Below are positions 15,001 to 18,000 of a stretch of DNA of 64,000 nucleotides, piece by piece. A program made the position numbers. Numbering within the stretch: the stretch's first letter is position 1; every line of letters begins with the position of its first letter. This stretch comes from Escherichia coli (GTDB lineage Bacteria; Pseudomonadota; Gammaproteobacteria; Enterobacterales; Enterobacteriaceae): NCBI RefSeq assembly GCF_030013595.1, contig NZ_CP122768.1; one strand, written 5' to 3'.

Positions 15001-18000
15001 TTTCATGTCCTGCATACGACGAGTTGCTGCTTCAATATCATCTTCTTCTTTCACTTTGCTGGTTTTCAGCAGAATGGCAGAGACAACGAAGGAGACAGCC
15101 ATCGCCGCACACACACCCGCGATGTTAGCGAAATAAGCACCTTTTGGTGTCATCGCCAGTACAGCAAGGATAGAACCCGGAGATGCCGGAGAAACCAGAC
15201 CACCGCCCAGGATAGTCAGCGTGAACACGCCAGTCATACCGCCGAGGATAACGGCCAGAATCAGACGCGGATTCATCAGCACATACGGGAAGTAGATTTC
15301 GTGGATACCGCCCAGGAAGTGGATGATTGCCGCACCGCCCGCAGACTGTTTAGCGCTACCACGCCCAAAGAACATGTACGCCAGCAGCACGCCCATACCC
15401 GGACCTGGGTTAGCTTCAATCAGGAAGAAGATGGATTTACCCAGTTCATGGGACTGCTGAATACCCAGCGGCGAGAAGATACCGTGGTTAATGGCGTTGT
15501 TGAGGAACAGGATTTTCGCCGGTTCAACAAAGATAGACGCCAGCGGCAGCATGTCATGGACAACCATGAAGTTAACGCCCGCAGCCAGCATTTTAGACAG
15601 AGCTTCAACAATCGGGCCAATGCCGAGGAATGCCAGAATAGCGAGGATCATCCCGATGATGCCTGCGGAGAAGTTATTCACCAGCATCTCAAAACCGGAT
15701 TTGATCTTACCGTCTACCCAGCGGTCGAAGTGCTTAATGCACCAGCCGCCCAGCGGACCTGCAATCATAGAACCGAGGAACATCGGCATATCTGCGCCGA
15801 CGATAACGCCCATGGTGGTGATGGCACCGACTACACCGCCACGTTCGCCGCCTACCAGCTTACCACCGGTATAACCGATCAGCAGCGGCAGGAGATAAGT
15901 GATCATCGGCCCGACCAGCTTCGCCAGCGTTTCGTTCGGTAACCACCCTGTTGGAATAAATAACGCGGTGATGATACCCCACGCGATAAACGCGCCGATA
16001 TTTGGCATCACCATGTTGCTGAGGAAACGACCAAAGCTTTGCACTTTGATCTTAATATCGGATGACATAAAAACACCCCTTCTTATGTTTGCTGTCGCGC
16101 AGGCTGGAAGCCCGAGGTTTTTTGTTAATGTGGCGGCAGAGGTAGCCGGACCTTGTAGATACTGCGAAATCTGGCACTGAATCGGTTAACTGTCCAGTCG
16201 ACGGCCTTTTGTGTGATATCAGTCACATAAATATAGGGGGTAGAGAGGTAATTGACGTGATGCTCATCACAAAACGACTGTGTAAAAAAGCAACAAGGCG
16301 GCGATTTTCGCTAAAAATGGCATTTAAATGTGAGTAATGTCACATTTTTGTTTTGTTAGTTTGTTGAATCTTTGTGATCTGAATCACAAGATATTTTCTT
16401 ACGGCGTTCACCTGATGTGATCTGCAGCATGTTATGCCTTCGTCATAAAATCGTTATGTAACTAAGCAACTCATCACCTCTAAAAATTATTCTTTGGTGT
16501 TATGGCGAGAATCGCGAACCCGAATTATTGTCAAAATATCAGCCTGACTCCCTTCTGGCTGCCAGCCAAAAAACAACACCGATAAACGTGAATCCGAGGC
16601 AGATATGTTTCTAAACTATTTCGCGTTGGGAGTGCTGATCTTCGTCTTTCTGGTGATTTTTTATGGAATCATCGCGATACATGACATCCCTTATCTGATT
16701 GCCAAAAAGCGCAACCATCCCCATGCCGACGCTATTCATACGGCGGGCTGGGTGAGCCTGTTTACTCTACATGTTATCTGGCCGTTCCTGTGGATCTGGG
16801 CGACGCTCTATCAACCGGAGCGCGGCTGGGGCATGCAGTCACATGTTGCGTCGCAAGAGAAAGCGACTGACCCGGAAATCGCCGCACTTTCTGACCGAAT
16901 TTCCCGGCTGGAGCACCAACTCGCCGCCGAGAAAAAGACTGACTATTCCACGTTCCCGGAGATCTAAATATGGATCTATTGATTGTTTTAACTTACGTGG
17001 CGCTGGCGTGGGCGGTCTTTAAAATCTTCCGCATTCCGGTGAATCAGTGGACGCTGGCGACGGCGGCGCTGGGAGGCGTGTTTCTGGTGAGTGGTTTGAT
17101 TTTGTTGATGAACTACAACCACCCTTACACTTTTACCGCGCAAAAGGCAGTGATAGCGATCCCCATCACGCCACAGGTGACGGGAATTGTTACTGAAGTC
17201 ACCGACAAAAATAATCAGCTTATTCAAAAGGGCGAGGTGCTTTTTAAGCTCGACCCGGTTCGTTACCAGGCGCGAGTTGACAGACTTCAGGCTGACCTGA
17301 TGACGGCGACGCATAATATAAAGACGCTGCGCGCGCAGCTCACTGAAGCGCAGGCCAACACCACCCAGGTTTCAGCGGAGCGCGACCGTCTGTTTAAAAA
17401 TTATCAACGTTACCTGAAAGGCAGCCAGGCGGCGGTGAATCCGTTCTCGGAACGTGACATCGACGATGCGCGGCAAAATTTCCTCGCGCAGGACGCGCTG
17501 GTGAAAGGCTCGGTGGCGGAGCAGGCGCAGATCCAGAGCCAGCTCGACAGTATGGTTAACGGCGAGCAGTCGCAGATTGTGAGCTTAAGAGCGCAACTTA
17601 CTGAAGCAAAATATAACCTTGAGCAGACTGTCATTCGCGCACCAAGCAATGGCTACGTTACTCAGGTACTGATCCGCCCAGGTACATACGCAGCTGCCTT
17701 GCCGCTACGTCCGGTGATGGTTTTCATCCCCGAGCAAAAACGGCAAATTGTCGCCCAATTTCGGCAGAACTCGCTGTTACGTCTGAAACCCGGCGATGAT
17801 GCGGAAGTGGTGTTTAACGCGCTACCTGGGCAGGTGTTCCACGGCAAACTGACCAGTATTTTACCTGTCGTGCCAGGCGGTTCGTATCAGGCGCAAGGGG
17901 TATTGCAATCATTAACGGTCGTGCCCGGCACGGACGGTGTGCTGGGAACCATTGAACTGGACCCCAACGATGATATCGATGCCTTACCCGACGGCATCTA

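What the first reader, a model, noticed from the sequence alone, without database searches (positions are those of the whole stretch)
16200..16400. Multiple near-perfect CRP-type palindromes upstream of mtlA
Seen in sequence: TGTGATATCAGTCACA (~16211-16226) and TGTGATCTGAATCACA (~16373-16388) are near-perfect TGTGA-N6-TCACA sites, and GTGATGCTCATCACA (~16259) is a related palindrome. Established knowledge: the mtl promoter is strongly catabolite-controlled with several CRP sites. These may also serve the divergent yibI gene.
Basis: partly seen in the sequence, partly recalled or inferred. Interest (0 to 1): 0.25.

Follow-up and report, generated by a model that had tools for sequence, protein, structure and literature searches.

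The report
Known CRP-site array of mtl operator
The palindromes are real and are three of the five long-known binding sites for the catabolite regulator CRP in front of the E. coli mannitol operon, so the finding is correct but already textbook knowledge.

Summary
The window is E. coli, apparently strain Nord122 in reverse orientation. mtlA lies on the minus strand (14155-16068) and yibI on the plus strand (16605-16967).

The 536-bp intergenic region holds five CRP-type sites, not three. Their centres are 16219.5, 16263.5, 16336.5, 16380.5 and 16423.5, spaced 44, 73, 44 and 43 bp. This matches the mapped K-12 sites CRP5 to CRP1 (-58.5 to -262.5). It missed CRP3, the best PWM match in the whole window, and the weak CRP1.

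The sites rank 1, 2, 5, 7 and 18 of about 64,000 positions. No shuffle produced such a cluster.

Published work shows what they do. They activate mtlADR, with CRP2, CRP4 and CRP5 essential. Pairs spaced 43-46 bp are also the landing pad for MtlR, a repressor with no DNA-binding domain.

My scan of 107 gammaproteobacterial mtlA loci found the 44/73/44 layout in 74. Most of those lack yibI next door, so I found no support for the array serving yibI.

Novelty: already known.

A side lead lies outside the window. The paralogous cmtBA operon also carries a conserved 44-bp CRP pair, and its cluster encodes the MtlR paralogue YggD/FumE.

The parts
16212..16227 (.). CRP5, the promoter-proximal CRP site TGTGATATCAGTCACA. 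Centre 16219.5, which is -58.5 from the TSS and 151.5 bp upstream of the mtlA ATG. Essential for activation in K-12.
   Evidence: 18.5 bits, rank 2. Position matches the published CRP5. Mutant phenotype.
16256..16271 (.). CRP4, CGTGATGCTCATCACA. Centre 16263.5 (-102.5), 44 bp from CRP5. Together with CRP5 it forms an MtlR-docking pair. Essential in K-12.
   Evidence: (14.3 bits, rank 5).
16329..16344 (.). CRP3, TGTGAGTAATGTCACA. Centre 16336.5 (-175.5), 73 bp from CRP4. It is the best CRP match in the window.
   Evidence: (18.7 bits, rank 1).
16373..16388 (.). CRP2, TGTGATCTGAATCACA. Centre 16380.5 (-219.5), 44 bp from CRP3. Essential in K-12 despite its distance from the promoter.
   Evidence: (13.5 bits, rank 7). 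Listed as a ChIP-seq site in ETEC.
16416..16431 (.). CRP1, a weak site TGTGATCTGCAGCATG with 7 of 10 consensus bases. Centre 16423.5 (-262.5), 43 bp from CRP2. Dispensable in K-12.
   Evidence: (10.4 bits, rank 18). The K-12/ETEC allele is listed in ChIP-seq.
16191..16196 (-). mtlAp -35 hexamer TGGACA, read on the minus strand.
   Evidence: Inferred from the published site positions relative to the TSS. Invariant in the 13-species alignment.
16168..16173 (-). mtlAp -10 hexamer CAGATT (3 of 6 matches to consensus), 17-bp spacer. This is a weak promoter of the activator-dependent type.
   Evidence: invariant. The consensus promoter scan does not detect it.
16161..16161 (-). Inferred mtlADR transcription start. 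It gives a 93-nt leader (16069-16161).
   Evidence: Back-calculated from CRP5 at -58.5. Not measured in this strain.
16177..16190 (.). Cra (FruR)-like half-palindrome CTGAATCGGTTAAC, lying in the -35/-10 spacer.
   Evidence: Resemblance to the Cra consensus is from memory. The block is invariant. Papers state that Cra binds the mtlA promoter. The exact site is not verified here.
14155..16068 (-). mtlA, the mannitol PTS enzyme IICBA (637 aa). It is the regulated gene, and its dephosphorylated IIB domain sequesters MtlR.
   Evidence: mechanism.
12912..14060 (-). mtlD, mannitol-1-phosphate 5-dehydrogenase (382 aa).
12157..12912 (-). mtlR, which encodes the repressor that docks on the CRP pairs. 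In this window a 1-nt deletion in an A7 run alters residues 192-195 and adds 56 aa.
16605..16967 (+). yibI, a divergent DUF3302 membrane-protein gene. It is a neighbour and is not shown to be controlled by the array.

Best explanation
The palindromes are the CRP operator array of the mannitol operon mtlADR. There are five cAMP-CRP sites upstream of a weak sigma-70 promoter (-35 TGGACA, -10 CAGATT).

When cAMP is high, CRP dimers occupy CRP5, CRP4, CRP3 and CRP2. CRP5, at about -58.5, is placed like a Class I site and most likely recruits RNA polymerase. The upstream sites are also needed and probably play an architectural role.

The same sites are the only DNA anchor for the repressor MtlR, which has no DNA-binding domain. 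One MtlR dimer bridges two CRP dimers whose centres are 43-46 bp apart. This applies to CRP5/CRP4 and to CRP3/CRP2, with CRP2/CRP1 as an alternative. Docking blocks the contacts between CRP and RNA polymerase (anti-activation).

Mannitol transport dephosphorylates MtlA (EII-Mtl). The dephosphorylated protein pulls MtlR to the membrane and relieves repression. Dephospho-HPr, which is abundant on glucose, competes MtlR off EII-Mtl and so restores repression.

What is shown here:
- the presence of the sites, their scores, and their identity with the K-12 sites;
- the exact spacing;
- deep conservation of the 44/73/44 layout.

What is taken from the literature for K-12:
- CRP binding, the requirement for each site, MtlR docking and membrane sequestration.

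What is inferred:
- that all of this applies unchanged to this strain;
- the TSS, -10 and -35 positions.
For: - The region is 100% identical to many E. coli genomes and is annotated yibI / mtlA.
- Against K-12 there are 13 substitutions and no indels. None falls in a TGTGA or TCACA pentamer, and five fall in the N6 cores.
- The site centres give spacings of 44/73/44/43 bp, equal to the published CRP5 to CRP1.
- PWM ranks are 1, 2, 5, 7 and 18. The cluster was never reached in 300 shuffles.
- The literature records five CRP sites (Ramseier & Saier 1995, cited), SELEX, PhyloScan rank 1 and ChIP-seq in ETEC.
- EMSA spacing experiments define the 43-46 bp window for MtlR docking, and chromosomal site mutants show CRP2, CRP4 and CRP5 to be essential.
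- In my own comparison of 107 mtlA loci, 100 have at least one pair spaced 43-46 bp. 74 have the four-site 43-45/72-74/43-45 layout, across Enterobacterales, Aeromonadales and Vibrionaceae.
- In 905 kb of control DNA there are only 3 such pairs.
- In a stack of 50 species, information content is 1.76 bits in the pentamers, 0.51 in the N6 cores and 0.44 elsewhere.
Against: - Nothing contradicts the identification.
- The MtlR-docking mechanism rests on one 2026 paper: EMSA, AlphaFold3 models and mutants, but no solved structure.
- My CRP matrix was built from sites recalled from memory.
- The TSS was not measured in this strain, and -58.5 is 3 bp off the canonical Class I position of -61.5.
- mtlR in this window carries a C-terminal frameshift that PGAP calls a pseudogene. 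The repression arm may therefore be impaired here, or the deletion may be an assembly error.
Confidence: 0.92

Rival explanations
1. The array is bidirectional. The distal sites CRP1 and CRP2 also activate the divergent yibIH operon, so part of the cluster exists for yibI.
For: - CRP1 and CRP2 lie 181.5 and 224.5 bp upstream of the yibI ATG.
- The ETEC ChIP-seq table assigns the CRP2/CRP1 peak to yibI, though by proximity only.
- Shimada et al. note that both divergent promoters are often CRP-controlled.
- A yibI promoter fragment is induced 5.6-fold in urine versus LB in UTI89.
Against: - yibI is adjacent to mtlA in only 13 of 120 loci, yet the four-site layout is conserved in 74 of 107.
- CRP1 scores at least 9 bits in 6 of the 12 yibI-adjacent species scanned. 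It also does so in 9 species without yibI.
- The distance from the sites to the yibI start varies by about 100-125 bp among yibI-adjacent species (start-to-start 434, 536 or 660 bp).
- No sigma-70 promoter could be placed at a Class I or Class II distance.
- One urine-inducible UTI89 clone is listed as starting only 144 bp upstream of yibI, which excludes all CRP sites. Those coordinates may be partial reads.
- I found no expression data linking yibI to crp.
Confidence: 0.15
2. In this particular strain the array works only as a CRP activator module. The mtlR frameshift would inactivate the repressor, making mtlAD inducer-independent but still cAMP-dependent.
For: - There is a 1-nt deletion in the A7 run at the 3' end of mtlR.
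- The product is 251 aa, residues 192-195 are changed, and PGAP annotates a pseudogene in Nord122.
- The C-terminal helices of MtlR form the CRP interface.
Against: - Residues 1-191 are identical to K-12, including the CRP-contact residues R167 and L178.
- Only 1 of 5,426 complete genomes carries the variant, and it lies in a homopolymer. That is typical of an assembly error.
- The effect of a 56-aa tail is unknown.
Confidence: 0.15
3. The palindromes are chance matches, part of a repeat element, or sites for another CRP/FNR-family regulator rather than CRP.
For: None beyond the generic similarity among CRP/FNR-family motifs.
Against: - The cluster was never reached in shuffles.
- The half-sites are TGTGA/TCACA, not the FNR-type TTGAT/ATCAA.
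- The pentamers are conserved while the N6 cores and flanks drift across 27 genera.
- Direct CRP binding is published for identical sequences.
Confidence: 0.01

Closest known systems
E. coli K-12 mtlADR operator with five CRP sites (Ramseier & Saier 1995; Lee et al., NAR 2026, PMC13421365)
   Same: Same locus, the same five sites and identical spacing (44/73/44/43). All 50 pentamer positions are unchanged. The -35, the -10 and the Cra-like block are identical.
   Different: There are 13 point substitutions in the 536-bp spacer. Five of them lie in the N6 cores of CRP1, CRP3, CRP4 (two) and CRP5. The mtlA-mtlD spacer is shorter (94 bp versus 229 bp). mtlR has a C-terminal frameshift.
CytR-CRP anti-activation at deoP2 and related promoters
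   Same: A repressor sits between two DNA-bound CRP dimers and blocks CRP-dependent activation (discussed).
   Different: From memory, CytR has its own LacI-type DNA-binding domain and operator half-sites, and works with CRP sites about 52-53 bp apart. Here the spacing is 43-44 bp and the partner, MtlR, has no DNA-binding domain.
malEp-malKp divergent control region with its array of CRP sites
   Same: Several adjacent CRP sites lie in a divergent intergenic region and form a higher-order activation complex.
   Different: The mal sites are 34 bp apart and do not recruit MtlR unless the spacing is lengthened to 44 bp. They need MalT. They truly serve both divergent promoters, which is not shown for yibI.
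Mlc-EIIGlc membrane sequestration
   Same: Derepression occurs when the dephosphorylated PTS permease captures the repressor at the membrane.
   Different: Mlc binds DNA directly. CRP is not its anchor.

Membership tests
cAMP-CRP binding site | Match to the 22-bp consensus AAATGTGA-N6-TCACATTT, with TGTGA/TCACA half-sites 6 bp apart. | tested here: met
   Three sites match 10 of 10 consensus positions, one matches 9 of 10 and one 7 of 10. PWM scores run from 10.4 to 18.7 bits, within or above the range of the 20 training sites (8.2-18.0), and rank 1, 2, 5, 7 and 18 in the window.
cAMP-CRP binding site | Demonstrated binding of CRP to the sequence. | not testable with these tools
   Published for the K-12 and ETEC alleles, which have identical pentamers: EMSA, SELEX and ChIP-seq.
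mtlADR operator (five-site array) | Location upstream of mtlA, with site centres at -58.5, -102.5, -175.5, -219.5 and -262.5. | tested here: met
   Centres at 16219.5, 16263.5, 16336.5, 16380.5 and 16423.5 give 44/73/44/43 bp. The alignment with K-12 has no gaps.
mtlADR operator (five-site array) | Conservation of sites and spacing in orthologous loci. | tested here: met
   74 of 107 loci have the four-site 43-45/72-74/43-45 layout. 100 of 107 have a pair spaced 43-46 bp. 15 have the fifth site.
MtlR-CRP-DNA anti-activation platform | Two adjacent CRP sites 43-46 bp apart, centre to centre. | tested here: met
   Three such pairs are present: CRP5/CRP4 at 44 bp, CRP3/CRP2 at 44 bp and CRP2/CRP1 at 43 bp.
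MtlR-CRP-DNA anti-activation platform | An intact mtlR with the CRP-contact residues R167 and L178. | tested here: inconclusive
   R167 and L178 are present and residues 1-191 are identical to K-12. A frameshift after residue 191 adds 56 aa, and PGAP annotates a pseudogene in Nord122.
Class I / Class III CRP-dependent promoter | A weak core promoter with a proximal CRP site near -61.5, plus further upstream sites. | tested here: inconclusive
   The -10 CAGATT matches 3 of 6 and the -35 TGGACA 5 of 6. The proximal site is at -58.5 by back-calculation from the published TSS. The TSS was not measured in this strain.
CytR-type CRP sandwich | CRP sites about 52-53 bp apart flanking CytR half-sites (feature recalled from memory). 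| tested here: not met
   The spacings are 43, 44 and 73 bp. I did not search for a CytR motif. This family was considered only as an analogy.
Bidirectional CRP control region (serving yibI as well) | A CRP site at a fixed activating distance from a mapped promoter of the divergent gene, with co-conservation of the two. | tested here: not met
   No yibI promoter could be located. The distance to yibI varies by 100-125 bp. The array is conserved without yibI, and CRP1 is not correlated with yibI.

The most novel reading that the evidence does not exclude
The 44-bp CRP pair may not be a peculiarity of mtl. It may be a general docking platform for MtlR-family proteins, which lack a DNA-binding domain.

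The evidence comes from the paralogous 'cryptic mannitol' operon cmtBA-yggP-yggF-fumE(yggD), which lies outside this window.
- In E. coli K-12, two CRP-like sites (15.3 and 13.3 bits) lie exactly 44 bp apart upstream of cmtB.
- 22 of 34 diverged metagenomic sequence clusters have an exact 44-bp pair, and a few more have 45 bp.
- The cluster encodes YggD/FumE, an MtlR paralogue that keeps the CRP-contact residues R167 and L178.

If this reading is right, YggD and/or MtlR anti-activates cmt through CRP. That could explain why cmt is 'cryptic'. The published statement that the mtl operator is the only E. coli region with this geometry would then need revising.

Within the window, the equally strict 73-bp gap between the two pairs suggests a phased higher-order CRP/MtlR nucleoprotein complex. 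The exceptions found, 63 and 82 bp, differ by about one helical turn.
Probability: 0.35. Interest if true: 0.55.

Novelty: already known. Interest (0 to 1): 0.13.

Why it matters
The finding itself re-discovers one of the best-mapped CRP control regions of E. coli, so it adds no new biology. It is useful as a positive control for the scan: a reader without tools correctly recognised a real, functional operator.

The follow-up adds two modest points.
- The whole 44/73/44 layout, including the 73-bp gap, is conserved from Enterobacterales to Vibrionaceae and Aeromonadales. This supports a phase-dependent architectural role for the far-upstream sites.
- The MtlR-docking geometry recurs at the cmt operon next to an MtlR paralogue. 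That yields a directly testable prediction about a second target of this unusual class of repressors that lack a DNA-binding domain.

Tried and rejected
- **Promoter scan.** The generic sigma-70 scan found neither mtlAp nor a yibI promoter. Its only hit overlaps the mtlA start codon on the wrong strand. mtlAp had to be placed from the published site positions.
- **yibI promoter.** I inspected 16432-16604 by eye and by phylogenetic footprint. Candidate -10 elements (TAAAAT at 16446, TATGTA at 16455, AAAAAT at 16482) have no acceptable -35 and are not conserved. None is claimed.
- **Small ORF.** A 27-codon ORF upstream of yibI (16502-16585), starting at the conserved ATGGCG block, was considered and rejected. 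Comparison with Citrobacter shows no synonymous-biased pattern. The whole stretch of about 100 bp is absent in Pseudescherichia and Escherichia sp. ESNIH1.
- **Positive controls for the PWM.** I looked at xylA/xylF, malS, aldB and yiaK elsewhere in the window. None of their intergenic regions reached the top 25. The strong hit at 53151-53172, which I first took from memory to be the xyl CRP site, maps inside the xylF coding region. I claim nothing for it.
- **Supplementary data.** The Cra/CRP ChIP-exo paper has no supplementary files held as text.
- **UTI89 clones.** The promoter-trap clone coordinates might delimit the yibI promoter to 144 bp. The 235-bp 'insert' is shorter than the stated 500-700 bp fragments, so it may be a partial read. 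I treat it as weak evidence only.
- **mtlA leader.** RNAalifold on the leader gave small hairpins and a possible anti-Shine-Dalgarno pairing. I did not pursue this.
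Full report
**1. What is in the sequence**

The stretch 16200-16400 lies in the 536-bp spacer between two divergent genes. A 637-aa ORF on the minus strand (14155-16068) starts MSSDIKIKVQSFGRFLSNMVMPNIGAF. A 120-aa ORF lies on the plus strand (16605-16967). Megablast finds the 701-bp region in 5,404 of 5,426 complete E. coli genomes. Several match at 100% and annotate the two genes as mtlA and yibI.

A 71-nt probe over a rare mtlR variant matches only strain Nord122 (NZ_CP139853.1) at 100%. The window is therefore that chromosome, or a very close relative, in reverse orientation.

Searching TGTGA-N6-TCACA with at most 1 mismatch gives only 6 hits in 64 kb, and 4 of them are here. 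A fifth, weak site (TGTGATCTGCAGCATG, 16416-16431) completes the set.

**2. Is it more than chance?**

I built a symmetric 22-bp CRP weight matrix from 20 classic non-mtl CRP sites. These were recalled from memory of the Stormo/Berg-von Hippel collection, so the matrix is approximate. The five sites score as follows:

| Site | Score (bits) | Rank among ~64,000 positions |
|---|---|---|
| CRP3 | 18.7 | 1 |
| CRP5 | 18.5 | 2 |
| CRP4 | 14.3 | 5 |
| CRP2 | 13.5 | 7 |
| CRP1 | 10.4 | 18 |

Five sites of at least 10 bits fall within 250 bp. In 300 dinucleotide-preserving shuffles the maximum was 2. Four sites of at least 13 bits occur together, against a shuffle maximum of 1.

**3. Comparison with the mapped sites**

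The site centres are 16219.5, 16263.5, 16336.5, 16380.5 and 16423.5, which gives spacings of 44, 73, 44 and 43 bp. Lee et al. (NAR 2026, PMC13421365) give the K-12 sites CRP5 to CRP1 at -58.5, -102.5, -175.5, -219.5 and -262.5. Those spacings are also 44, 73, 44 and 43.

The gap-free alignment with MG1655 shows 13 substitutions in the spacer. None lies in the 50 pentamer positions. Five lie in the N6 cores of CRP1, CRP3, CRP4 (two) and CRP5.

Back-calculation places the TSS at about 16161 on the minus strand. The -10 is CAGATT (16168-16173) and the -35 is TGGACA (16191-16196), with a 17-bp spacer and a 93-nt leader. This weak -10 is what one expects of an activator-dependent promoter, and it explains why the consensus scan misses it. 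A Cra-like element, CTGAATCGGTTAAC (16177-16190), sits in the spacer. The papers state that Cra and Fis also bind this promoter, but I did not verify the exact Cra site.

**4. Independent published evidence**

- The five sites were described by Ramseier & Saier in 1995 (reference listed).
- Genomic SELEX recovered the yibI/mtlA spacer as the second most abundant CRP-bound clone, with 38 clones.
- PhyloScan ranked yibI/mtlA first genome-wide for CRP sites.
- ChIP-seq in ETEC H10407 found two CRP peaks here. The table lists exactly the CRP2/CRP1 and CRP5/CRP4 sequences.

**5. How it works (from the literature)**

- CRP is required for mtl expression. Chromosomal replacement of CRP2, CRP4 or CRP5 abolishes expression and growth on mannitol. 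Replacement of CRP3 has a mild effect, and CRP1 is dispensable.
- MtlR has no DNA-binding domain. It supershifts CRP-DNA complexes only when two CRP sites are occupied and their centres are 43-46 bp apart, with an optimum of 44-45 bp.
- The mal array, spaced at 34 bp, binds MtlR only after it is lengthened to 44 bp.
- MtlR R167E and L178A lose both docking and repression.
- Dephosphorylated EII-Mtl sequesters MtlR at the membrane, which gives induction. Dephospho-HPr competes for MtlR, which gives glucose repression.

The same sites are also the operator of the specific repressor.

**6. My own comparative test**

A degenerate DNA pattern for the MtlA peptide GRFLSNMVMPNIGAF retrieved 120 loci from distinct species. 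107 of them had at least 450 bp of upstream sequence.

- 100 have at least one pair of CRP-like sites (at least 9 bits) 43-46 bp apart.
- 74 have the four-site 43-45/72-74/43-45 layout. The counts are 25 of 26 Enterobacteriaceae, 9 of 9 Erwiniaceae, 8 of 9 Yersiniaceae, 4 of 4 Pectobacteriaceae, 9 of 9 Aeromonadales and 9 of 26 Vibrionaceae.
- Orbaceae have a single 43-44 bp pair. The two Pasteurellaceae have three sites spaced 40 and 44 bp.

Adjacent-spacing counts peak sharply: 44 bp occurs 144 times, 43 bp 30 times, 45 bp 17 times and 73 bp 69 times. Inter-pair gaps of 63 bp (Edwardsiella, within a 44/63/44 layout) and 82 bp (Enterovibrio) differ from 73 by about one helical turn. Gilliamella wkB308 also shows a 63-bp interval, but next to its single pair.

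Control DNA (905 kb of flanks plus the rest of the window) has 0.22 sites per kb and only 3 pairs at 43-46 bp.

In an ungapped stack of 50 species from 27 genera, information content is 1.76 bits in the pentamers, 0.51 in the N6 cores and 0.44 elsewhere. This independently confirms the published claim of conserved operator spacing and extends it to the 73-bp gap. The paper's main text reports operator architecture for four other species.

**7. The yibI clause**

- yibI is adjacent and divergent in only 13 of the 120 loci. These are Escherichia, Citrobacter, Pseudescherichia, Pseudocitrobacter, Leclercia and a few Enterobacter-like genomes.
- The four-site layout is conserved in many genera without yibI.
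- The weak, yibI-proximal CRP1 scores at least 9 bits in 6 of the 12 yibI-adjacent species scanned. It also does so in 9 species without yibI.
- Among yibI-adjacent species the start-to-start distance is 434, about 536 or about 660 bp. The sites therefore have no fixed distance to yibI.
- I could not place a credible yibI promoter and found no crp-dependent expression data for yibI.
- The only hints in favour are the proximity-based ChIP-seq assignment and urine induction of a yibI promoter fragment in UTI89. One clone may even lack all CRP sites, although its coordinates are ambiguous.

The array belongs to mtl. Control of yibI is neither supported nor excluded.

**8. Strain-specific point**

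mtlR in this window has a 1-nt deletion in an A7 run. Residues 1-191 are identical to K-12, including R167 and L178. Residues 192-195 change from AFQK to PSKS, and the ORF then runs on for 56 more codons, antisense through yibT. Only Nord122 among 5,426 complete genomes has this variant, and PGAP calls it a pseudogene. It may be a homopolymer assembly error. If it is real, the repressor arm acting on these CRP pairs could be altered in this strain.

**9. Side lead outside the window**

One of the three control pairs at 43-46 bp lay upstream of a cmtB/cmtA-like operon in Rahnella. In K-12, the region upstream of cmtB has two CRP-like sites. They are TATCGTGATGCATATTACATAA (15.3 bits) and ATTTGTGATCTACAACACGCCT (13.3 bits). 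Their centres are exactly 44 bp apart, 178.5 and 222.5 bp upstream of the ATG.

A metagenome scan with a CmtA peptide pattern gave 93 loci with enough upstream DNA, falling into 34 sequence clusters. 22 clusters have an exact 44-bp pair and a few more have 45 bp. Outside the sites the flanks are only about 46% identical.

The gene order cmtB-cmtA-yggP-(yggF)-fumE is conserved wherever enough sequence is available. FumE, formerly YggD, is a paralogue of MtlR (27% identity, E = 2e-17). R167 is invariant and L178 is L or F in the sampled FumE homologues.

cmtB is a SELEX CRP target, and its promoter is less active in a crp mutant. The 2026 paper does not mention cmt or YggD, and it states that mtl is unique in having this spacing among RegulonDB CRP units. 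My prediction is that YggD and/or MtlR docks on the cmt CRP pair. This is inference only.

**10. Verdict**

The feature is already known in detail. Interest in the finding itself is low. The comparative results and the cmt/YggD lead are by-products.

Noticed in passing
window 12157-12912 (minus strand); deletion at 12341-12346: mtlR has a 1-nt deletion in an A7 run. Residues 192-195 change and the ORF extends to 251 aa, antisense through yibT. The variant is unique to strain Nord122 among 5,426 complete E. coli genomes and is annotated there as a pseudogene. It could be a homopolymer assembly error.
   Followed up: yes
L125 (NC_000913.3 3073000-3081000) 6499-6564; L052 about 11424-11491; L126-L245: The cmtBA ('cryptic mannitol' PTS) operon has a conserved pair of CRP-like sites 44-45 bp apart, which is the MtlR-docking geometry. 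Its cluster encodes FumE/YggD, an MtlR paralogue that keeps R167 and L178. The 2026 MtlR paper does not mention this.
   Followed up: partly
window 16263.5-16336.5 (the CRP4-CRP3 gap) and loci L002-L121: The 73-bp gap between the two CRP pairs is as strongly conserved as the 44-bp spacings: 69 loci have exactly 73 bp and 9 more have 72 or 74 bp. Gaps of 63 bp (Edwardsiella, within a 44/63/44 layout) and 82 bp (Enterovibrio) differ by about one helical turn, which suggests helical-phase constraint.
   Followed up: partly
window about 16291-16296 (run of A on the plus strand, i.e. a T-run on the mtlA strand, upstream of CRP4) and about 16353-16363 (GTTTTGTTAG on the plus strand, i.e. the AACAAA block on the mtlA strand, between CRP2 and CRP3): Two blocks that are not CRP sites are conserved across 27 genera. 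One is AACAAA, 8-13 bp promoter-side of CRP2. The other is a T-run about 12 bp upstream of CRP4. They could be A-tract bends or the reported Fis sites. They remain unassigned.
   Followed up: no
window 16069-16161 (minus strand), hairpin about 16090-16104: The mtlA leader contains small hairpins (GGCCGGC...GCCGCC and CGGGCTTCCAGCCTG). The second shows apparent compensatory changes in Pseudocitrobacter. A CCUC motif could pair with the AAGGGG Shine-Dalgarno sequence.
   Followed up: partly
window 16478-16585: About 100 bp upstream of yibI, including an invariant TATGGCG block and a 27-codon ORF, is present in Escherichia and Citrobacter but absent in Pseudescherichia and Escherichia sp. ESNIH1. 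Enterobacter-like genomes carry about 125 bp extra instead. The yibI 5' region is therefore an indel hotspot, unlike the gap-free mtl operator.
   Followed up: partly
window 26463-26476: A perfect FNR-type palindrome, TTGATATTTATCAA, lies just inside the annotated start of yiaW. yiaW is the DUF3302 paralogue of yibI, and yiaWV parallels yibIH.
   Followed up: no
window 53151-53172, 46772-46793 and 40122-40143: Strong CRP-like matches of 13-15 bits lie inside coding regions (xylF, malS and yiaN). By contrast, the known CRP-regulated intergenic regions of xyl, malS and aldB in this window did not reach the top 25 PWM hits.
   Followed up: no
window 14061-14154: The mtlA-mtlD spacer is 94 bp here against 229 bp in K-12. 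This strain presumably lacks the repetitive element present in K-12.
   Followed up: no
literature: PMC7858067: A 1-bp insertion in the mtlA/yibI intergenic region became fixed in a long-term stationary-phase E. coli lineage. Given the 1-bp sensitivity of MtlR docking, its position relative to the CRP pairs would be worth checking.
   Followed up: no
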